Positions 5,883 through 64,000 of a stretch of 64,000 nucleotides of DNA are shown here, one piece after another. Source of the stretch: Escherichia coli. GTDB taxonomy: Bacteria; Pseudomonadota; Gammaproteobacteria; Enterobacterales; Enterobacteriaceae. Made by a program: the position numbers and the translations under genes. A model generated the notes under the pieces. The model was not told the origin of the DNA and searched no databases. It worked only from the letters and a program-made list of their open reading frames with translations. Every line of letters begins with the position of its first letter. Positions within the stretch are counted from its first letter, which is position 1. The stretch is from assembly GCF_044647545.1 (NCBI RefSeq), contig NZ_CP172818.1, one strand, 5' to 3'.

Positions 5883-6133
5883 CCCGTAATCTCTGGCGCG
5901 TTGCCGATGCGCCGCACATTGTTCCGGCTGACTCCGTTGAGCGTCAGACGGTACAATGGTTGATTAACGCTTGTCCGGCTGGTCTTTTTTCGCTCACACC
6001 AGAAGGTGACTTACGTATTGACTATCGCAGTTGCCTGGAGTGTGGCACCTGCCGTTTGCTGTGCGACGAAAAAACACTACAACAGTGGCGCTATCCACCT
6101 TCCGGATTCGGCATCACCTACCGTTTTGGATAA
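5873..6133 (+). CDS. ygcO: ferredoxin-like protein (FixX-like)
   Basis: ATG at 5873 gives MSVARNLWRV...CLECGTCRLLCDE with a cysteine cluster; overlaps the ygcN 3' end as in fixCX pairs. Confidence 0.8.
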   Translation: MSVARNLWRVADAPHIVPADSVERQTVQWLINACPAGLFSLTPEGDLRIDYRSCLECGTCRLLCDEKTLQQWRYPPSGFGITYRFG

Positions 6134-6149
6134 ATAATAAGGATAATTT

Positions 6150-6725
6150 ATGCCCCTCTTACACCTGCTCCGCCAGAATCCGGTGATTGCTGCCGTTAAA
6201 GATAATGCCAGCCTGCAACTGGCAATCGACTCTGAATGCCAGTTTATTTCCGTGTTGTACGGCAATATCTGCACCATCAGTCATATCGTCAAAAAGATTA
6301 AAAGTGCCGGGAAATATGCCTTTATTCATGTCGATTTGCTGGAAGGCGCATCGAACAAAGAAGTGGTGATTCAGTTTCTGAAACTGGTGACCGAGGCGGA
6401 CGGCATTATCAGCACGAAAGCATCGATGCTGAAAGCAGCAAGAGCGGAAGGTTTTTTCTGTATTCATCGCCTGTTTATTGTTGATTCGATTTCGTTTCAC
6501 AACATTGATAAGCAAGTTGCGCAATCGAATCCGGATTGTATTGAGATCCTGCCTGGCTGTATGCCCAAAGTGCTGGGCTGGGTGACGGAGAAAATCCGCC
6601 AACCGCTGATTGCTGGCGGGCTGGTGTGCGATGAAGAAGATGCGCGTAATGCGATTAACGCAGGTGTCGTGGCGCTTTCCACCACGAATACCGGGGTCTG
6701 GACGCTAGCGAAAAAATTGCTTTGA
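6150..6725 (+). CDS. ygcP: GlpP-like glycerol-3-phosphate-responsive antiterminator family protein
   Basis: 191-aa ORF; protein recognised as YgcP (GlpP family). Confidence 0.8.
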   Translation: MPLLHLLRQNPVIAAVKDNASLQLAIDSECQFISVLYGNICTISHIVKKIKSAGKYAFIHVDLLEGASNKEVVIQFLKLVTEADGIISTKASMLKAARAEGFFCIHRLFIVDSISFHNIDKQVAQSNPDCIEILPGCMPKVLGWVTEKIRQPLIAGGLVCDEEDARNAINAGVVALSTTNTGVWTLAKKLL

Positions 6726-6764
6726 CGGGATAATCGTAACGAATTGAATTTGTGTGATTTGTAG

Positions 6765-6830
6765 GCTGTACGCCACATCGGACATTCAGCGCCTGATGCG
6801 ACGCTTGACGCGTCTTATCAGGCCTACAAG
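6765..6830. repeat. REP element between ygcP and ygcQ
   Basis: gcctgatgcgacgcttgacgcgtcttatcaggcctac at 6791-6827 is a near-perfect REP consensus. Confidence 0.75.
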
Positions 6831-6871
6831 TCCCCAGGCCAGAACCGTAGGCAGGATCATCCAGCAACACG

Positions 6872-7732
6872 TTATTGGCAATCTGCGTGAATGTTTGTCA
6901 CCATTGCCTCCAGCACCACTTTCCAGTCATCAACCACGCCAACATCTGCCTGTGAAAATACCGCTGCGCTGGCGTCATGATTAATCGCCACCACAAACTT
7001 GCTATTGCATACGCCCGCCATTAACGCTGCTGCGCCAGAAGCGCCAACAACAATACACACCTCAGGTGCCAGCAGATGTCCGGAAATACCAATCACTTTT
7101 TCAGCATCAACGCCACCGTTCATCACTCGCGCCCGACTGTAGCCCACTTCGGCTCCCAGCTTTTCTGCCAGCATAGCGATTTCCTGGTTATCTGCCTCTC
7201 CGCCCTGCCCCACCACCAGCACCCGTCTGGCTTCAGCTAATGGGTCGCGGGTAACATTTTTCAGGTTTTCTAGGCTAACCAGCCAGTCGGGAAGCGCGCC
7301 GGGGACAATGTTCAGTTGCTGCATCCCAGAGGGCAACGTGGCGTTTTTATCTGCTCCCGCCTGACGCGCCAGCGAAAGGCATAGCGGGCGTTTGTCTGTT
7401 TGCAGCGTCGCCGTCAACGCATTTCCCCAGTGGGATTTGCGCACGCTTACGGTTGGAATATCTAACGAAGTCACCTGGCAGATGCTTGCACCATGTAAAC
7501 GCCAGGCCAGCCGGGTCGACAGTTCATCGCCAAACGTTCCCGGCGGAAAGAGAACAACGTCCGCAGGCGTTCGCTGCCACTGTTCCACCAACGCATCCAG
7601 CACCTGTTCCGCCACTACGGGCTGAGGTTCAATCTGCCAGTGCGCCAGGGTACAACCGCTGAAATCCTGCGCCGCCAGCCAGCTCGCTATTGCGGCATTC
7701 TCCTGATTTATTGTCACAATTGCGATATTCAT
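6872..7732 (-). CDS. ygcQ: electron transfer flavoprotein alpha subunit-like (FixB-like)
   Basis: ORF track 6872-7765; likely start at MNIAIVTINQENAAIASWL (286 aa). Confidence 0.8.
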   Translation of the reverse strand: MNIAIVTINQENAAIASWLAAQDFSGCTLAHWQIEPQPVVAEQVLDALVEQWQRTPADVVLFPPGTFGDELSTRLAWRLHGASICQVTSLDIPTVSVRKSHWGNALTATLQTDKRPLCLSLARQAGADKNATLPSGMQQLNIVPGALPDWLVSLENLKNVTRDPLAEARRVLVVGQGGEADNQEIAMLAEKLGAEVGYSRARVMNGGVDAEKVIGISGHLLAPEVCIVVGASGAAALMAGVCNSKFVVAINHDASAAVFSQADVGVVDDWKVVLEAMVTNIHADCQ

Positions 7733-15964: not shown

Positions 15965-16367
15965 TGGTTCATCCCCGCTGGCGCGGGGAACACGTCTTTT
16001 TGACCGGCCGGTAAATCGTCTGCCTGCGGTTTATCCCCGCTGGCGCGGGGAACACAAACCATTCTCGCAATCAAGGACTATTCCTAGACGGTTTATCCCC
16101 GCTGGCGCGGGGAACACGGTCGCAGGGAATACAAAGCCGTGCATCCTGCTCGGTTTATCCCCGCTGGCGCGGGGAACACTGGCTCTGCAACAGCAGCACT
16201 ATGACCCCGTCGGTTTATCCCCGCTGGCGCGGGGAACACGAAAAGCTTATGATCGTTAATGCCGCAAACACCGGTTTATCCCCGCTGGCGCGGGGAACAC
16301 ATTACACCTATGTGCGAGCGCCCGGTTTTTGCCGCTAGCGGTTTATCCCCGCTGGCGCGGGGAACAC
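15965..16367 (-). CRISPR. Type I-E CRISPR array, 7 repeats and 6 spacers, no adjacent cas genes
   Basis: Repeat cggtttatccccgctggcgcggggaacac (29 bp) at 16027, 16089, 16151, 16211, 16272 and 16339, plus a degenerate terminal copy at about 15965; spacers 31-38 bp; orientation inferred from the AT-rich leader on the high-coordinate side. Confidence 0.95.
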
Positions 16368-30004: not shown

Positions 30005-31345
30005 TTAACGCACCATGCACGGGCGCTTGTTATCAAACGTCCAGCCAGGAATCAGGTACTGCATTCCCATCGCATCGTCACGCGCGCCAAGCCCGTGTTT
30101 CTGATACAGCTCGTGGGCTTTCATCACCTGATCCATATCGATTTCTACGCCCAATCCTGGTTTTTGCGGCACCTGTACCAGCCCGCCTTTGATCTCAAAC
30201 GGTTCTTTGGTCAGACGCTGATTGCCTTCCTGCCAGATCCAGTGCGTATCAATAGCAGTAATTTTACCCGGTGCAGCAGCGGCTACATGGGTAAACATCG
30301 CCAGGGAAATATCGAAGTGGTTGTTAGAGTGTGAACCCCAGGTCAGGCCAAATTCATGGCACATTTGCGCCACACGTACCGAACCTTGCATCGTCCAGAA
30401 ATGCGGATCCGCCAGCGGGATATCAACGGATTGCAGGGAGAGCGTATGGCCCATCTGCCGCCAGTCGGTGGCGATCATATTGGTTGCGGTCGGCAGGCCA
30501 GTCGCGCGACGGAACTCTGCCATCACTTCACGCCCGGAGAAACCTTGCTCCGCACCACACGGATCTTCTGCATAAGCCAGCGAACCTTTCAGGTATTTAC
30601 CAATTTTAATCGCTTCGTTCAGCGACCAGGCACCGTTAGGATCGAGGGTAATACGCGCCTGTGGGAAGCGTTGCGCCAGTGCCACAATAGATTCTGCTTC
30701 TTCTTCCCCGGCCAGTACACCGCCCTTCAGTTTGAAATCGTTGAAGCCATATTTTTCATATGCCGCTTCCGCCAGGCGCACCACCGCATCCGGCGTCATC
30801 GCTTCTTCGTGACGCAGGCGATACCAGTCACATTGATCATCCGGCTGGCTTTGATACGGCAGCGGTGTGGCTTTGCGATTACCGACGAAGAACAGATAAC
30901 CGAGCATTTCGACTTCGCTACGCTGTTGACCATCGCCCAGCAGCGATGCCACGTTAACCCCCAGATGCTGCCCCAGCAGATCCAGCATTGCCGCTTCTAT
31001 CCCGGTAACCACATGAATAGTGGTCCGCAGGTCAAATGTCTGCAAACCGCGCCCGCCGGCATCACGATCGGCAAATGTATTACGCACCAGCGTCAGAACG
31101 TTTTTGTATTCACCCAGCGTTTTACCCACCACCAGCGGAATCGCATCTTCCAGCGTTTTACGGATTTTCTCGCCGCCGGGAATTTCCCCTACCCCAGTGT
31201 GACCAGAATTATCTTTGATAATCACAATATTACGCGTGAAGAACGGTGCGTGTGCACCACTCAGATTCATCAGCATACTGTCATGGCCCGCCACCGGGAT
31301 GACCTGCATTTCAGTAACAACAGGCGTCGTAAATTGAGAACTCAT
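30005..31345 (-). CDS. gudD: glucarate dehydratase
   Basis: ORF track 30005-31369; known start [24 protein letters not shown] (446 aa); enolase-superfamily. Confidence 0.92.
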
Positions 31346-31365: not shown

Positions 31366-32706
31366 TCAATGACGGCCGAAAACGGGACGTTTACGGTCAA
31401 AGGTCCAGCCGGGGATCAGGTACTGCATCGGGCCCGCGTCGTTACGCGCACCGCCAGGCAGACGTTTATAGGCCTCATGCGCCTTTTGTACCTGCTCCCA
31501 GTCCAGTTCCACGCCCAGACCGGGCGCATCAGGAACGGCAATTTTTCCATTTTTAATCTCCAGCGGATTTTTGGTCAGGCGACAATCGCCCTCCTGCCAA
31601 ATCCAGTGGGTATCGATAGCGGTAGGATTACCCGGTGCCGCCGCGCCCACATGGGTAAACATCGCCAGAGAGATATCAAAGTGGTTATTGGAATGGCAGC
31701 CCCAGGTCAGCCCCCAGTCGTCGCAAAGCTGCGCTACGCGGACTGCACCGGAAAGCGTCCAGAAGTGCGGGTCGGCAAGTGGAATATCTACCGCATTGAG
31801 CATCACCGCATGGCCCATTTCGCGCCAGTTGGTGGCGATCATATTAGTCGCGACGGGCAAGCCGGTCGCCCGCCGAAATTCCGCCATCACTTCACGTCCG
31901 GAGAAACCCTGTTCTGCGCCACACGGATCTTCGGCATAGGTGAGAACATCATTCAGCCCTTTGCACAGAGAAATAGCTTCATCAAGCAGCCATGCTCCGT
32001 TGGGATCAACGGTAATCCGCGCATCCGGGAAGCGTTTCTTCAATGCACGAACAGTGTCGATTTCTTGCTCGCCAGGTAACACTCCGCCCTTAAGTTTGAA
32101 ATCTTTAAAGCCATAGCGATCCTGTGAAGCTTCCGCCAGACGCACAACGGCTTCGCTGTTCATCGCTTTCTGATGCCGCAATTGATACCACTCATGGTTG
32201 CCCGGAGTATTTTCCAGATAAGGAAGATCGGTTTTGGTCCGATCACCGATATAAAACAGATAACCGAGGACGGTAATAGCATCGCGTTGCTTGCCTGGCC
32301 CTAACAGTTCGCAGACCGGAACATTCAGCGCCTGACCTAGCAGGTCAAGCAAGGCGGCTTCCAGCGCCGCCACGGCATTAACGCGCAATTCAAAAGTCCA
32401 GGCACCTTTGCCGAAGGTATCAAAATCGGCTGCCTGATTACCTTTATGCACCTGCTGAACCACTTTATTCAGTCGTGCGATCTCCTGGCCCAACACCATC
32501 GGAATAGCCTCGACCAGTGTTTGATAAATCACCTCTCCGCCCGGCGCTTCACCAATGCCGGTATGCCCGGCGTTATCGGTGAGTACCACAATATTGCGGG
32601 TGAAATATGCGTTATGTGCACCACCAATATTAAGCAACATGCTGTCATGTCCGGCGACCGGAATGACTTTCATATCAGTAATAACAGGACTGGATTGTGT
32701 CGTCAT
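31366..32706 (-). CDS. gudX: glucarate dehydratase-related protein (paralog of GudD)
   Basis: 446-aa ORF beginning [23 protein letters not shown]; colinear with gudD over its whole length. Confidence 0.92.
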
Positions 32707-43775: not shown

Positions 43776-43858
43776 GCCGGATGCAAACGATTATCAACAC
43801 ATTGAATTTAATGCACTTATATGCCGGATAAGACACGGCTAGCGTCGCATCCGGCATT
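43776..43858. repeat. REP-like inverted repeats between xni and fucO
   Basis: tgccggatgcaaacg ... atgccggataagacacggctagcgtcgcatccggca: paired palindromic units typical of REP/BIME. Confidence 0.6.
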
Positions 43859-57851: not shown

Positions 57852-57926
57852 AGCACCTCAGAATTAAAAAGGGCGAGGTTTCCCTCACCCTGTCGTATCC
57901 GTCAAAACGGTATACAGAATAACACA

Positions 57927-59024
57927 TCAGCCGCTAAAGACGTTACCTGCGCCCGGGGCGGTTTTCAGCACCCAAACACGTCCATAGTGGTTGTACCAAC
58001 CTGCGCGGTGTCCGGCTTCCGGCCCGATACCTTGATAAATATCGAAGTGTTGGCCTTTGATTGCACCACCGACATCCAACGCCACCATCAGCCGTAGTTC
58101 GTACTGACCGTTAAATTTGCCGTTATTATCCAGCAGCGGCACTTCTGCCAGTAAGGTTGTACCAGGCGGGATAATGGAACGATCGGACGCAACTGAAGCG
58201 CGACCAACCAGCGGCACCGCACTTGCCCCTTTCACCGGAGCAAAAGATTGCGGTTTAAAGAAGACGAAAGACGGGTTCTGTTCCAGCAGCTCGCGAACCT
58301 CGGCTTCACTGTGTGTTTCACCCCAGTGACGAATCGCCTGCATCGACATATCTTCTTTTTTCACTTCGCCACGGTCGATCAGCACCTTACCAATGCTGCG
58401 ATAGGCATGACCGTTTTTCCCTGCATAGCTGAAAAAGTTAAGCGGACTGCCATCACCAAAGTCGATATACCCACTACCCTGCACATCCATAATGAAGTTA
58501 TCCATCAGAGAGTTGCTGTAAGCGAGGATGTATTTATCGCTCAATGCCCCCGCGTAGATCTCCGCACGAGACGGCAGACGACCACGTTTTGGCGGCATAC
58601 GGTAAATCGGATACTGAAACTCGCCCTGGCGGGTATGGCGCGCCTGAATTACTGGCGTGTAATAACCGGTAAACTGCACGTTACCATAGTTGTCGGCACC
58701 TTCCATCTGCCAGGCATCAATGCCGAACTGGCGCATATTGCGGGTATCACCGCCTGCGCGCAGCCACTCTTGCACCGCGTTATAAACATTACTCTGGTTG
58801 CCATACAGACGCGGTGACGAATTACGGATATGGTTAATTTGCTCGGCAAAATCACCGGCGTTAATCGGCGCGCCAACGGCATCTGGCTGGTTCACCAGAG
58901 AGAAAGGCTGGGTAAATTTCCCGTCTTTATATTGCTGTCCGCGATCGGTTGGTTTGGAAGAGCAGGCGGCAAGCATTGCCACAACCGTGCCCATAAGAAG
59001 GTACTTTACCCAACGTCCTTTCAT
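57927..59024 (-). CDS. mltA: membrane-bound lytic murein transglycosylase A
   Basis: ORF track extends to 59306, but the real protein starts MKGRWVKYLLMGTVVAMLAACSS (lipoprotein signal) at 59024 (365 aa). Confidence 0.92.
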   Translation of the reverse strand: MKGRWVKYLLMGTVVAMLAACSSKPTDRGQQYKDGKFTQPFSLVNQPDAVGAPINAGDFAEQINHIRNSSPRLYGNQSNVYNAVQEWLRAGGDTRNMRQFGIDAWQMEGADNYGNVQFTGYYTPVIQARHTRQGEFQYPIYRMPPKRGRLPSRAEIYAGALSDKYILAYSNSLMDNFIMDVQGSGYIDFGDGSPLNFFSYAGKNGHAYRSIGKVLIDRGEVKKEDMSMQAIRHWGETHSEAEVRELLEQNPSFVFFKPQSFAPVKGASAVPLVGRASVASDRSIIPPGTTLLAEVPLLDNNGKFNGQYELRLMVALDVGGAIKGQHFDIYQGIGPEAGHRAGWYNHYGRVWVLKTAPGAGNVFSG

Positions 59025-59232
59025 TGTTCTCTTCTTCAGGTTAAAAAATAAGGCGCAACGAAGATAACAAACCGCCGCGTTTAATGAAATGAGCAGCCTC
59101 TCCCTGACGCAAATTTTGCACAAAAACCAGGCTTTAGTGATTTGTTTTTGCTCAAAATCATACCAAATCCGTGATCTGGGTAAAAAAAAGGTTGCATGAA
59201 AACGCGAGCGGAGTATAGTGCGCATCCACGGA

Positions 59233-59309
<77 letters not shown>

Positions 59310-59342
59310 ATTAAAATTTGATGAAGTAAAGCAGTACGGTGA

Positions 59343-59419
<77 letters not shown>

Positions 59420-59452
59420 ATCAAAATTTAATGAAGTAAAGTAGTACGGTGA

Positions 59453-59529
<77 letters not shown>

Positions 59530-62500
59530 ATTATCTGAATACCCAAGTTTTCACAATCGTTTTTTTTATTTAAATCTTTCCTGAATCACAAAGTTTTTTA
59601 TCTCCCTTCCTCGAATAATCAATTACACTAAATTATCCCTTTCTGTATACTCAATCCCCGATATCCTTGTAATGATATTTTCATTACATCTAAATTCCCA
59701 ACGTTCAACTAAACACATCCACCCCAAAACATTTCTTCTTCAATCACCTAATAAACCCCTCATCCACAACTCCCCCCATTGATGATCAACACATCCATCA
59801 TCACAAATATTTATACTAATAAATCTCCACTCAAAAAAACAAAAAACAATGATGAATCGACTCATAAAATATCTTCAATTATACAAATGAATCCACTTTT
59901 CACAACTAATCTTTTTTCAAAACTAAAACTCAACATCAAAACAATAACCTTCCCATTTTTCCAATATCGTACCAACACAATACGTTTACCTTTAACCCAC
60001 CATCACTCACCCATACCATTTTCATCCATGATACACCGATATTTTCATCCCGAAATAATCCAATGATAAATTCCCAACCATTTGAATTAATCCCAACCAT
60101 TATTACAATAATACTATTCCTCCACGAAATCAATATTTCTATCCCCTCCCGAATCTCGATATTATTTTCACACCAACACAATAACTTCCCCTATAACAAT
60201 CTTCCCAACCCAAATAATCTCTAATCATATTCTATTTAACAATCCCACATTATTCTTAATAATAAATTAAAATTATTCTCTCTACAACCCAAAACACTCT
60301 AAAACACTACCAAACATTTTTATACACACTCACTTCAAAAACCACCCCAAAAATACTTACTGTATTTATATTTTAAATTATGAATTTCTTTAACCATCAC
60401 CCCTGATGATAAACCGAAACACACATAAATTTTTTCAATTCAAATCAACCCACCCATCACCAACAACCAAACAACATCCACACATATCTAAACTAAATTA
60501 TCCCCTCACTTTACGATTTCAACAATAAATCACAACTTACCAACATATATACTAAAAAATCAAATAATTACCCATTTTTTTCAACACATTCCCAATTTCC
60601 CTCTCACACTTTTGAAATAAAATAACAACATCTCTTCCCACATCCAATCCTGTACCCTCCTACCTAACAAAAAACGAATCCTACTCAAAATCCGATTTTC
60701 CAATAAACCGACTTACCAACACCAATAAAAACAACTTTTCCCTACAAATTTATACTTTAATTAAAACGAATCAAAATATCAATAACTCTCTACTTAATTC
60801 TTACATAAAATTTTAATAATATATCTTATTCATTTTTATTCTCCCTGATTAATATTTTTAATTACACTCACAAACCGTAACCCCATATATAATTTTTCTC
60901 ACCCACCATTCAAGAATACCCTCCCCCTCCGTTCCATAACATCCCCCCATAACCATTTCCTTCATGAATTAACACTTAAAATTCATCAAAAGATAACCAA
61001 TACAAACAATCTACCAAAAAAACAACATCACTCCTACATCAATTCAATATTTTATTCAATACTAATTGAATTAACAATATTCTTTAATGATTTACATCCC
61101 AATCTAACAATAAACAATTATATTCATACTATGGATTTACAAAACTATACGATATCTTCTAACTTATGATTAAAATTACTCATTAAATCATAAGATCTTA
61201 TCAAATTAAATTCATATCATTATACTACTACTTTTTCTTTTTTTATTTTAACCGATGTAACTACTCATTAAAAACAAAATCACTATGATTTCATCTAACA
61301 TAACAAATTATCCTTAACCACATTTTATATTCTTCTTCCACCAACTTCCTCGTTATGAGATTACATAATAACACCATCTCTTTTATCTTAAACAAATCCC
61401 ATTATACTACCCCCCTCATTTTTTATAATCAAAACTTCAAATATTCCCTATTTTTTACATCAAAAACATTAAACATTAAAAACAAATATTATCACACGAT
61501 CAATAATCTATTCTTTTCAATAATACATCACATCTATATTATCCATTCATTTTATCTTTTATATTTTATAAACCATTTACTACCATTCAATATTCACATT
61601 CAAACAGTACCTAAAATCTTTCCAAGTTTTCTTAATCCCTACACACTTCTTATCAAATCCATATCTAAATAAAATGTAATACATCTTTTACACCAAATCT
61701 CCCCAAAATCCCATTTACAATATTTCCTTCAAACAGTATTAAAAACATCCATCACATATCCATTATTATCCATATCCACCAACATGACTTTATACCGATA
61801 ATATTTATATTTTATCAATTTAATATAATTCCCCACTCTTTTTATTCTCCTCAATCAACCCATATCGATTTTAAACTAAAGATACCAATTATCCAGATTT
61901 AATATTCTCTTTACCACAATCCTTAACATCTCTCTCTTCACTCTATTTATCAACGTATATCCCTATACTATCCTCATACTTCACTACAATACTCTTCACC
62001 ACTCATCAGTTAAATTTAAAATACAACAACACAAAGTAATAAATAAAAAATACCACTTCGACACACACCTATTCAACTTTCTTCCACCAAACCCAAACTA
62101 ATAAATTGAATCAACCCATAAATCCCATCTTCACCCCATAACAAACACGAATCCATTCATAAATCATAAACAAACACATACTACAAATAAAAAAAATCCA
62201 ACTCCTACCCCCAATAATGATTAACACCCCAAATAACAATCTTTATACTTTTCTTTTACATACATCGATACACCACCCACCACCAACATACTAATCATCA
62301 TTTCTTTCCATTTTCCCCCAAACCACAATACCATTCTCTACACCCATAAAATCATCCATAATACTCTCCCCCAATCACACCTAAACCGACGTAAACAAAA
62401 ATCACCAGATTTTAACCAAAAAACTCACTCCAACTCATAAAAAATAACCGAACAACCGAATATATCATCCAATGACATGAAAATTAAAAACCCAATAAAA

Positions 62501-63641
62501 GAATGATCAACCAAACCATCATCACAATCATTAATAACACAACCTATAAAAACTAATATCTAACTAAATTAACGTCTTTTTAACACCATAATAACCCACA
62601 ACAATTCCTCTAAACCTTATTTAACTGATCCCAAATATTTATCGACATTTACACACCAATAATCTCTTTTAAATAAAATTCTCCCAGACACCCATAAAAC
62701 AATAAAGAAAAACATATTTATCCTCTTTTTTTTAATAACCAAGAATTTACCAAACAAACATAATAACAAACAAACAAACCAAAACAATAAACAATATTTT
62801 TATTATGAAACCAAAATAATTAATCCATATCATCATCTAAACATCCACCTACATCACACATACAACAACAAGAAATAAACCTCATCTAAAAAAAATCCAC
62901 TTTCTTTTATTTCATATAAATTTATATATAAAATTAATACTACGAATAAAATATATTTTCTCTAAATACATATTTAAAACAACAATACTCAATTTATGAA
63001 TTAAAATTCTTTCTCAAAAATCATAATCACAATATTCTTTTTTTTATACATAAAACAAAAAAAATAATCATCATAACTTAAATTAAATAATCTCACTTAT
63101 AAAACCGATAACTTTATTTTTTAATAATAAAAAGCATAACAATGAATTCAATTATTTAAAACAAATAAAATTCATCAAATTAAACTAAATTATAATAACA
63201 CAATATTTACAATTTATCAAAAAAAATTATTATTTTACCAAAAAATAAAACAAAAAACAAAAATTTAATTTTTCAAATACACAAACAACAACAAAACAAC
63301 AAATACATAATAATATAACGGGTGTTTTTTTGTTTCTTGTCTCCCATAAAAGAGCCAGCCATCTCAGACGACATTCCATATTTTTTTTTAACCACCCACC
63401 CAGAAATATAACCTCTCCATTCACACTTACACAATTATTTCATACTTATATCAATACTCCCAAAAAAAACAACACTCAAATAATAATACTCAAACAATAA
63501 CATACAAAATAACAACAAACAAACGAATTTTTAATTAAAAACTTTATTTTCAACGACATTCAAAATCCACATCATCACAAAACATCTAATATTCATAAAT
63601 TTATCTATCAACGAAATATAAATTCATAATAAATAAAAACA
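59530..63641. other. ~4.1 kb compositionally anomalous, non-coding block (G-depleted on + strand), identity unknown
   Basis: Sampled 60-nt lines contain 0-4 G against roughly equal A, C and T; almost no ORFs on either strand; starts the base after the metV CCA and ends the base before the amiC stop codon. Confidence 0.9.
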
Positions 63642-64000
63642 TTATCCCCTTCTCGCCAGCGTCGCCCCATCGGCAAAATACGCTTTAATTCCCGCAAGAA
63701 TAGACTCCGCAACTTCCTGCTGGAAAGTCGCCGTTTTCAGTTTACGCTCTTCCTCAACGTTACTGATAAACGCCGTTTCGACCAGAATGGAGGGAATATC
63801 TGGTGCCTTTAGTACGGCAAACCCAGCCTGTTCAACTTGATTTTTATGCAGCTTGTTGATTTTACCGAGCTTATTCAGCACCGCTTTACCAAACTTAAGG
63901 CTGTCGGCAATGGTCAGCGACTGCACCATATCGAACATAGTGTGGTCGACATAGCGGTCACCGCTTTTGCTTACGCCACCAATCAAGTCCGAGGCGTTCT
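63642..64000 (-). CDS. amiC: N-acetylmuramoyl-L-alanine amidase, C-terminal part (5' end beyond window)
   Basis: Reverse-strand translation ...[52 protein letters not shown] (Amidase_3 C-terminus); position after metV matches amiC synteny. Confidence 0.85.

What the first reader, a model, noticed from the sequence alone, without database searches (positions are those of the whole stretch)
59530..63641. A 4.1 kb G-depleted, ORF-free block fills the metV-amiC gap
The whole window otherwise looks like ordinary E. coli sequence with balanced composition. From the base after the third tRNA-fMet to the base before the amiC stop codon, the + strand is built almost only from A, C and T; G occurs a few times per 60 nt and almost always as isolated single Gs. 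Neither strand has a credible ORF, and I saw no tandem repeat, CRISPR-like periodicity, tRNA/rRNA structure or terminator. From memory, K-12-type genomes have only a short spacer between metV and amiC. It is therefore an insertion of unknown origin: a foreign or synthetic non-coding cassette, a very unusual natural element, or an assembly or data artefact. A transcript from either strand would be very unusual (G-less from one, C-less from the other) and the asymmetry is strong enough to favour R-loops. This is the feature in the window least explained by known biology.
Basis: partly seen in the sequence, partly recalled or inferred. Interest (0 to 1): 0.9.

Follow-up and report, generated by a model that had tools for sequence, protein, structure and literature searches.

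The report
Corrupted copy of a known island
The strange G-poor, gene-free 4.1 kb block is a common five-gene E. coli sugar-uptake island with about a quarter of its letters (mostly G) dropped and pieces of the K-12-type allele mixed in, so it is almost certainly a data artefact and not a real genetic element.

Summary
Window 59530-63641 has 2.75% G, against 21-28% everywhere else in the window, and has no credible ORF, RNA gene or repeat. It is not unknown DNA. 4,082 of its 4,112 bases form an ordered subsequence of the 5,566-bp metV-amiC island of strain IMT16316; shuffled controls leave about 1,100 bases unexplained. That island (LicT-type antiterminator, MalX-like PTS IIBC, PatB/MalY lyase, KpsF/GutQ-type protein, 2-hydroxyacid dehydrogenase) is intact in 1,689 of 5,426 complete E. 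coli genomes.

The change consists almost entirely of single-base losses: G 89%, T 20%, C 19%, A 2.5%. There are essentially no substitutions, and the losses ignore codon phase and gene borders. The rest of the window (about 59 kb) differs from IMT16316 by one SNP.

The short K-12-type metV-amiC spacer is embedded in the block in collinear pieces, at the positions where an alignment of the two alleles would place them. The window's CRISPR array is likewise a base-by-base blend of K-12-type and IMT16316 spacers.

No mutational process produces this pattern. It is best read as a lossy, template-biased computational merge (consensus calling, polishing or deliberate editing). All five island genes are destroyed in the text. 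Interest is low, and the block is not a real feature.

The parts
59233..59529 (+). metZ-metW-metV: three tandem tRNA-fMet genes (59233-59309, 59343-59419, 59453-59529). Intact, and they form the left border of the block.
   Evidence: ARAGORN; Rfam tRNA at 61.4 bits each; 100% identical to L002.
59530..63641 (-). Degraded copy of the 5,566-bp metV-amiC accessory island, whose genes lie on the - strand. It is an ordered subsequence of the IMT16316-class island, with 89% of G, 20% of T, 19% of C and 2.5% of A missing on the + strand.
   Evidence: 4,082 of 4,112 bases explained; shuffles leave about 1,100 unexplained.
59530..59546 (+). Left junction. The first bases after metV follow the K-12-type short spacer (ATTAT-TGAA.ACCC; 22 of 25 columns counted from 59523) blended with island sequence.
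59586..60323 (-). Remnant of the 2-hydroxyacid/phosphoglycerate dehydrogenase gene: 738 of 948 nt remain and the reading frame is destroyed.
   Evidence: Coordinate map; only fragmentary tblastn matches; family names.
60378..60833 (-). Remnant of the KpsF/GutQ-family SIS-domain gene: 456 of 597 nt remain.
60836..61752 (-). Remnant of the PatB/MalY-family C-S lyase gene: 917 of 1,176 nt remain.
61752..62910 (-). Remnant of the MalX-like PTS IIBC transporter gene: 1,159 of 1,581 nt remain.
62931..63453 (-). Remnant of the LicT/BglG-family PRD antiterminator gene: 523 of 825 nt remain. This is the most heavily thinned part.
63316..63375 (+). Patch of normal composition that keeps its G's. It matches the K-12-type metV-amiC spacer (metV terminator right arm plus T run; 52 of 60 columns) and cannot be derived from the island by deletion. 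It lies where the island shares the 12-mer TGTTTTTTTGTT with that spacer.
63642..64000 (-). 3' end of amiC, with its stop codon at 63642-63644. Intact and 100% identical to L002.

Best explanation
The block does not faithfully represent any DNA molecule. It is the ordinary metV-amiC accessory island of an IMT16316-like E. coli lineage after a lossy, alignment-based computational merge with the island-free K-12-type allele.

Shown: positions where both alleles have a base were kept, G's included, often with the K-12-type base. Positions present only in the island, that is, an insertion relative to a K-12-like template, were individually kept or dropped with a probability that depends on the base (G much more than T or C, and those much more than A), on its neighbours, and slowly on position. 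The same blending with the K-12-type allele happened at the only other kilobase-scale structural difference in the window, the CRISPR array. All SNPs and indels up to 162 bp are rendered correctly in the lineage's own form.

Inferred: the step responsible is most likely a consensus, polishing or reference-guided reconstruction that makes per-column base-versus-gap decisions with a learned or weighted rule. A deliberate in-silico edit or the output of a generative model would look the same.

Consequence: the text contains no functional element here. In the real organism the five island genes are most probably intact.
For: (1) Origin: the block matches the annotated island found at this locus in thousands of genomes. 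4,082 of its 4,112 bases are an ordered subsequence of the IMT16316 island. Shuffled, reversed and reverse-complemented controls leave 1,015-1,161 bases unexplained. More divergent natural island variants leave 102, 197 and 269.
(2) Edit spectrum: G is lost at 890 of 1,003 positions, T at 319, C at 233 and A at 43. At most about 31 block bases could be substitutions or insertions, and there is no G-to-A signal.
(3) No selection and no elapsed time: loss rates are the same at all three codon positions and in genic and intergenic DNA. About 59 kb of flanking sequence differs from IMT16316 by 1 SNP plus the CRISPR locus. Close relatives carry an intact island with 2 SNPs.
(4) Not random thinning: surviving G's are followed by A 78 times (44 +/- 6 expected) and by C twice (34 +/- 5 expected). 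Retention is graded by both neighbours and there is no discrete motif.
(5) Second allele: the K-12-type spacer appears at the left junction and in the 63316-63375 patch, at the alignment-optimal position.
(6) Independent locus: all six CRISPR spacers in the window are mosaics of K-12-type and IMT16316 spacers within the K-12 architecture, and no complete genome has this array.
(7) Smaller indels relative to K-12 (+50 bp, -162 bp) are resolved cleanly.
(8) The sequence is absent from every public collection searched.
(9) Tools exist that make per-position indel-only calls from pileups of homologous genomes, using separate A, T, C and G count features (PMC8011154).
Against: The software or procedure cannot be identified from the sequence. 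I could not reproduce the base hierarchy with any named tool. The strong strand asymmetry (G lost but not C) is not expected from a consensus built on reads of both strands; it needs single-strand evidence, or a rule applied to the text of one strand. The gradient of T and C loss, which peaks within about 1 kb of the spacer-like patch, is unexplained. Raw reads and the source record are not available, so physical non-existence is inferred and not shown. The borders coincide with annotated feature ends, which would also fit a deliberate edit.
Confidence: 0.9

Rival explanations
1. Deliberate in-silico construct or generative-model output. Someone, or a sequence model, rewrote the strain-variable intervals of a natural genome window, for example as a synthetic test case. 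This is a special case of 'not real DNA' and differs from the best explanation only in intent.
For: The damage starts within a few bases of the tRNA end and stops at the amiC stop codon, both annotated feature borders. The flanks are letter-perfect. The sequence is absent from all public collections searched. The graded, context-dependent retention looks like a learned model. Memorised K-12 alleles intrude at two loci.
Against: A simple scripted thinning would not embed the K-12 spacer at the alignment-optimal position, and would not blend CRISPR spacers column by column. The feature borders coincide exactly with the breakpoints between the island and spacer alleles, so they are equally expected from an alignment-based pipeline artefact. 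A left-to-right generator would have to begin the K-12-like stretch (TAACGGGTG) before reaching the sequence that the two alleles share.
Confidence: 0.3
2. Single poor long read or signal-channel dropout. The island was bridged by one single-molecule read in which the weakest base signal (G) was mostly missed and intermediate ones (T, C) increasingly so. The read was never corrected, while the flanks were polished.
For: The base hierarchy A << C ~ T << G and the slow drift of T and C loss along the block resemble an intensity threshold. The strand asymmetry fits a single read. Neighbouring C/T losses are slightly correlated.
Against: Raw single-molecule reads carry several percent substitutions and insertions. 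Outside the patch, the block has about 20 unexplained bases in about 4,050. This reading does not explain the embedded K-12-type spacer or the blended CRISPR spacers. It also does not explain why the damage ends exactly at the allele breakpoints.
Confidence: 0.05
3. Physically real engineered DNA: a synthetic G-poor cassette placed between metV and amiC in a laboratory strain.
For: The borders are sharp and the composition is unnatural.
Against: The block is a stochastic subsequence of the native island and not a designed sequence. It still contains 113 G's and has no promoter, terminator, marker or vector homology. The CRISPR locus is blended too, which no cassette insertion would cause.
Confidence: 0.02
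4. A real natural process: strand-specific hypermutation or decay of a horizontally acquired island, for example deaminase-type editing, error-prone synthesis that skips template C when dGTP is limiting, or a RIP-like genome defence.
For: The extreme strand asymmetry is confined to an accessory island downstream of a tRNA integration hotspot (PMC7545054).
Against: Deaminases give transitions at constant length, whereas here there are about 1,485 single-base deletions and no G-to-A changes. There is essentially zero divergence in 59 kb of flanks. Codon position has no effect. K-12-type sequence that the lineage does not carry at this locus is embedded in the block. The parallel CRISPR blend is not biologically plausible. 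No second example exists in 5,426 genomes or in the contig collections.
Confidence: 0.01

Closest known systems
Intact metV-amiC accessory island of E. coli (e.g. IMT16316 NZ_CP023815.1, CFSAN061771 NZ_CP042896.1, Ecol_881, strain 536): LicT/BglG-type PRD antiterminator, MalX-like PTS IIBC, PatB/MalY C-S lyase, KpsF/GutQ-type SIS protein, 2-hydroxyacid dehydrogenase
   Same: Same chromosomal interval, same orientation and same order of sequence. 99.3% of the block's bases are an ordered subsequence of it, and the flanks are identical.
   Different: The window copy lacks 1,454 nt (26%), mostly G. None of the five ORFs survives. It also contains K-12-type spacer sequence that the island lacks.
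K-12-type short metV-amiC spacer (73 nt; metV terminator plus amiC terminator), present in about 3,350 of 5,426 complete genomes
   Same: Its sequence is recognisable at the left junction and in the patch 63316-63375 (52 of 60 columns, E = 3e-8 against 28 Gb).
   Different: In the window it is split into pieces separated by about 3.8 kb of thinned island sequence. The amiC stop codon is the island type (TAA), not the K-12 type (TGA).
False indel 'corrections' by genome polishers and consensus callers (Racon, Medaka, HELEN, Homopolish; Huang et al. 2021, PMC8011154)
   Same: These tools make per-position base-versus-gap decisions from pileups. Homopolish uses pileups of related RefSeq genomes, edits only indels, and has separate A, T, C and G count features. 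Polishers are documented to introduce thousands of false deletions. The edits here are also almost only indels, are confined to loci where homologs differ structurally, and are biased toward another genome's allele.
   Different: I found no published description of a kilobase-scale, base-selective thinning like this one, and I could not run the tools. Which procedure acted here, if any of these, remains inferred.
Cytosine-deaminase or bisulfite-type strand-specific conversion (APOBEC/AID-like hypermutation, MutaT7-type targeted mutagenesis, fungal RIP); from general knowledge
   Same: All produce strand-asymmetric loss of one base over a defined tract.
   Different: Those processes substitute (C to T, or G to A) and keep the length. 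Here G's are removed, the length shrinks by 26%, and T, C and A are also removed at graded rates.

Membership tests
E. coli metV-amiC PTS/antiterminator accessory island | Located between the third tRNA-fMet gene (metV) and the amiC stop codon | tested here: met
   same flanks (mltA, metZWV, amiC, argA).
E. coli metV-amiC PTS/antiterminator accessory island | Collinear nucleotide homology over the whole interval | tested here: met
   4,082 of 4,112 block bases are an ordered subsequence of the IMT16316 island; controls leave about 1,100 unexplained.
E. coli metV-amiC PTS/antiterminator accessory island | Five intact ORFs on the - strand | tested here: not met
   Longest - strand ORF is 81 aa; only fragmentary tblastn matches; 107-121 stop codons per - strand frame.
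Deaminase/bisulfite-type hypermutated tract | Differences from the parent are G-to-A (C-to-T) transitions at unchanged length | tested here: not met
   890 G positions are deleted; at most 6 extra A's in the whole block; length is 4,112 against 5,566.
Naturally decaying pseudogene cluster | Divergence of the flanks commensurate with divergence of the locus, and a mixed spectrum of substitutions and indels | tested here: not met
   1 SNP in about 59 kb of flank against about 1,485 deletions in 5.6 kb; essentially no substitutions.
Synthetic G-less cassette or vector insert | Designed sequence with no G on one strand and flanked by functional parts; homology to vectors | tested here: not met
   113 G's remain; the sequence derives from the native island; no plasmid or phage match; promoter and terminator scans at chance level.
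CRISPR array, tandem repeat or structured RNA locus | Periodic repeats, or a covariance-model match | tested here: not met
   TRF finds only three about 24-nt low-complexity rows; Rfam finds only the three tRNAs.
Alignment-based consensus, polishing or merge artefact | Damage confined to positions where two alleles differ structurally, with sequence of the second allele embedded at alignment-consistent positions | tested here: met
   The borders equal the island/spacer breakpoints. K-12-type spacer pieces lie at the left junction and at the shared 12-mer. The CRISPR array is blended with the K-12-type array. Smaller indels are clean.
Alignment-based consensus, polishing or merge artefact | Edits indifferent to biology (codon phase, gene borders) | tested here: met
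   Loss rates are equal across codon positions and in genic and intergenic DNA.
Alignment-based consensus, polishing or merge artefact | Raw reads contradict the assembled sequence | not testable with these tools
   The source record and reads are unavailable. The block is absent from the searched collections.

The most novel reading that the evidence does not exclude
The block physically exists in a living E. coli. It would then be the product of an unknown, strand-specific, base-selective 'skipping' process, for example error-prone copying of one strand of a horizontally acquired island that omits most template C's. That would amount to a deletion-based analogue of repeat-induced point mutation that silences an accessory island in one step.
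Probability: 0.01. Interest if true: 0.95.

Novelty: not a real feature. Interest (0 to 1): 0.06.

Why it matters
As biology it does not matter. The locus is a common, annotated sugar-PTS island, and the G-less composition, the absence of ORFs and the supposed R-loop potential are properties of a corrupted text.

It matters as quality control. The window shows a recognisable signature of a chimeric or lossy reconstruction:
- indel-only, base-selective thinning of a lineage-specific insertion
- another genome's allele embedded at alignment-consistent places
- CRISPR spacers blended between two strains

Any downstream analysis of this record would be misled, including gene content, CRISPR typing, island presence or absence, and pseudogene counts. 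The signature could be used to screen other records for the same fault.

Tried and rejected
1. G-to-A hypermutation or bisulfite-like conversion. I aligned in a reduced alphabet with G set equal to A. The alignment broke into 403 blocks with hundreds of small gaps, and explicit counts show deletions, not transitions. Rejected.
2. Pure deletion of G. After stripping G from both sequences, 574 non-G bases are still missing. Rejected as a complete description.
3. Independent base-specific random thinning. Simulations with base-specific and position-specific rates do not reproduce the GA excess (z = +5.5) or the GC deficit (z = -5.7). Rejected as a complete description.
4. Codon-aware or gene-aware editing. 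There is no codon-phase or genic/intergenic effect. Rejected.
5. A discrete motif protecting G. GATC keeps 4 of 15, and retention is graded by the neighbours. Rejected.
6. A different natural island variant as parent, or a natural variant explaining the patch. The 97%, 94% and 92% variants fit progressively worse. Relatives with exact flanks have the ordinary sequence.
7. Partial island variants among homologs as the cause of the T/C gradient. 1,687 of 1,689 island-bearing genomes have the full-length island. Not supported.
8. Tracing the source record. Exact look-up of ten spurious ORFs, an exact 40-mer in genome contigs and metagenome contigs, and plasmid and phage BLAST found nothing.
9. 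A K-12 'leak' at the single SNP (window 7669). This is explained by IMT16316's private nonsense allele in ygcQ, so it is not evidence either way.
10. RNA families, tandem repeats, promoters and terminators in the block. Nothing above chance.
Full report
OBSERVATION. The anomaly is real. From the base after the third tRNA-fMet gene (tRNAs at 59233-59309, 59343-59419 and 59453-59529) to the amiC stop codon (63642-63644), the + strand has 113 G in 4,112 nt (2.75%). Every 4,112-nt window upstream has 20.8-27.6% G. GC skew in 200-nt windows is about -0.55 to -0.96 inside the block and returns to ordinary values within 100-200 nt at each border. The longest ORF on either strand is 105 aa with a low-complexity translation. 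Rfam finds only the three tRNAs. Tandem Repeats Finder reports only the tRNA array and three about 24-nt low-complexity rows. Promoter-like and terminator-like sites are at shuffle expectation. One 60-nt patch of normal composition (63316-63375) interrupts the depletion.

WHAT IT IS DERIVED FROM. BLAST against 5,426 complete E. coli genomes shows that the block is homologous, at a nominal 72% identity, to an annotated island that fills the metV-amiC interval in many strains. In CFSAN061771 (L002), IMT16316 (L004) and Ecol_881 (L005) this interval is 5,566 bp. It carries five genes on the - strand, annotated as phosphoglycerate dehydrogenase, KpsF/GutQ-family isomerase, MalY/PatB-family protein, PTS EIIC and PRD-domain protein. 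NCBIfam places them as a 2-hydroxyacid dehydrogenase, a KpsF/GutQ-type SIS protein, a PatB-family C-S lyase (above cut-off), a MalX-like PTS IIBC and a LicT/BglG-type antiterminator. The intact island is present in 1,689 of 5,426 genomes, and in 1,687 of those it is full-length. metV is a documented integration hotspot (PMC7545054, PMC3032704). The island-free allele, as in the K-12-type strain ER1709, is a 73-nt spacer.

HOW THE BLOCK DIFFERS FROM THE ISLAND. I first tested the obvious idea of G-to-A hypermutation with a reduced-alphabet alignment. It broke into 403 blocks separated by tiny gaps. The length deficit of 1,454 nt suggested deletion instead. A gap-tolerant alignment shows that the block is essentially an ordered subsequence of the island. 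There are 4,121 matched columns including 40 nt of flank and only 31 block bases not found in order in the island. The losses are G at 890 of 1,003 positions (89%), T at 319 (20%), C at 233 (19%) and A at 43 (2.5%).

Because gap-rich alignments are permissive, I ran controls. Against the IMT16316 island, 30 of 4,112 block bases are unexplained. Ten shuffles leave 1,015-1,161 unexplained, the reversed block 1,130 and the reverse complement 1,125. Natural island variants of 97%, 94% and 92% identity leave 102, 197 and 269. The parent is therefore the island of the same lineage as the flanks.

There are 995 deletion runs, of which 710 are single bases. G loss is about 0.9 throughout. T and C loss rises from about 0.1 on the left to 0.45-0.65 around L002 6,500-7,500 and falls again near the right border. 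A loss stays at or below 0.07.

THE PROCESS IS BLIND TO BIOLOGY AND HAD NO TIME TO ACT. Loss rates are the same at codon positions 1, 2 and 3 of the - strand genes (G 0.90/0.90/0.88; T 0.20/0.19/0.19; C 0.18/0.19/0.19) and in genic and intergenic DNA. All five genes are destroyed. tblastn finds only short collinear fragments, and each - strand frame has 107-121 stop codons.

The flanks 59000-59529 and 63642-64000 are letter-identical to L002. The 21.5 kb upstream is 100.0% identical to more than 15 natural isolates that carry the intact island. Across about 59 kb the window differs from IMT16316 by one SNP plus the CRISPR locus. That SNP (7669) is IMT16316's private nonsense allele in ygcQ. 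About 1,485 deletions in 5.6 kb against one SNP in 59 kb cannot be evolutionary decay.

IT IS NOT SIMPLE RANDOM THINNING. Simulated independent thinning with the observed base-specific and position-specific rates predicts that a surviving G is followed by A 44 +/- 6 times and by C 34 +/- 5 times. The observed counts are 78 and 2. Among dinucleotides only GA and GC deviate strongly (z = +5.5 and -5.7). Retention of a G run is graded by both neighbours: C_A 0.44, T_A 0.28, C_T 0.18, A_A 0.10, anything followed by C 0.01. No discrete motif is involved, and GATC keeps 4 of 15. C and T losses are weakly correlated between neighbouring positions (lag-1 r = 0.125). This looks like a statistical or learned decision rule.

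A SECOND ALLELE IS EMBEDDED. The G-retaining patch cannot be derived from the island by deletion; 9 of the 31 unexplained bases lie in it. It matches the K-12-type spacer, TAACGGGTGTTTTTTTGTTTCTGGTCTCCCATAAAAAAGC..., over 52 of 60 columns (BLAST E = 3e-8 against 28 Gb). It sits where the island shares the 12-mer TGTTTTTTTGTT with that spacer, which is where a global alignment of the two alleles would place it. The first bases after metV (ATTATCTGAATACCC) also follow the K-12-type spacer (22 of 25 columns counted from 59523) blended with island sequence. The limits of the damage coincide with the breakpoints between the two alleles. So where both alleles have a base it is kept, G's included, and where only the island has a base it is thinned.

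AN INDEPENDENT LOCUS SHOWS THE SAME MERGE. The only other place where the window departs from IMT16316 is the type I-E CRISPR array next to queE (repeats at 15965-16339). It has 6 spacers of irregular length (33, 33, 33, 31, 32 and 38 nt), none identical to any of IMT16316's 23 spacers, and no complete genome carries the array (best match 91.9%). Three-way alignments show that each spacer is a base-by-base mosaic of the K-12-type spacer at that position (ER1709 has 7 repeats and 6 spacers) and the IMT16316 spacer aligned to it. Bases from neither parent number 0, 9, 1, 1, 1 and 3. Real spacers are acquired whole and do not blend.

Other differences from K-12 are all rendered cleanly in the lineage's own form: about 1,170 SNPs, small indels, a 50-bp insertion at 43783 and a 162-bp deletion at 57883. 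The pattern is that of an IMT16316-like sequence projected onto, or merged with, a K-12-like template, with failure only at the kilobase-scale structural differences.

PROVENANCE. Ten spurious ORFs from the block are absent from a 15-billion-protein collection. A 40-mer from the block is absent from the genome and metagenome contig collections. There is no plasmid or phage match, and no complete RefSeq E. coli genome contains the block. I could not identify the source record.

MECHANISM AND CONFIDENCE.
- Shown: the block is a lossy derivative of a known island plus K-12-type allele sequence, produced by edits that no known mutational process makes and that ignore coding.
- Inferred, about 0.9: it does not exist as DNA.
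- Inferred, about 0.55-0.6: it arose in a consensus, polishing or reference-guided step that makes per-column base-versus-gap calls. Such tools exist. Homopolish builds a pileup of related RefSeq genomes and classifies each position only as deletion, no deletion or insertion of A, T, C or G, using separate A, T, C and G matched-allele counts. Polishers are documented to introduce thousands of false deletions (PMC8011154). This establishes plausibility, not identity. I could not run any tool.
- Deliberate in-silico editing or the output of a sequence model (about 0.3) is indistinguishable from the sequence alone.
- A single low-quality read (about 0.05) fails on the near absence of substitutions and on the K-12 intrusions.
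- Real engineered DNA (about 0.02) and a real natural process (about 0.01) fail on the points above.
- Unexplained: the strand asymmetry (G lost but not C) and the T/C gradient.

VERDICT. The interpretation 'unknown insertion or unusual natural element' is not supported, and the 'assembly or data artefact' option is supported. This is not a real feature, so its biological interest is low. It has some value as a quality-control signature.

Noticed in passing
window 15965-16367: The type I-E CRISPR array next to queE has 7 repeats and 6 spacers of irregular length (31-38 nt). Each spacer is a base-by-base mosaic of the K-12-type spacer at that position and an IMT16316 spacer. No complete E. coli genome carries this array (best match 91.9%). 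This is a second artefactual allele merge, independent of the metV-amiC block.
   Followed up: yes
window 62700-63450 (L002 about 6000-7500): Loss of T and C rises from about 10% to 45-65% within about 1 kb of the K-12-like patch and falls again to under 10% in the last about 90 nt. G loss (about 90%) and A loss (under 7%) stay flat. The cause of this gradient is unexplained.
   Followed up: partly
window 7669: This is the only SNP against IMT16316 outside the two blended loci. The window has G, as K-12 does. IMT16316 has A, which corresponds to the 'internal stop' annotated in its ygcQ pseudogene. The window's source is therefore a close relative with an intact ygcQ.
   Followed up: yes
window 43783 and 57883: Relative to K-12 the window has a 50-bp insertion (43783) and lacks a 162-bp REP-like segment upstream of mltA/metZ (57883). 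Both are rendered exactly as in IMT16316, so medium-sized indels escaped the corruption.
   Followed up: partly
window 59538-59570: The island's own metV-proximal terminator hairpin (GCCGCAAT...ATTGCGG followed by a T run in L002 2052-2083) is disrupted by the base losses, and the K-12-type terminator in the patch lacks its left arm. As written, the tRNA operon has no intact terminator, a further sign that the text is not functional DNA.
   Followed up: partly
window 30033-30830 and 31397-32193: There is reciprocal similarity of about 71% between the adjacent gudX and gudD genes. This is the known paralogous enolase-superfamily pair and is ordinary.
   Followed up: no
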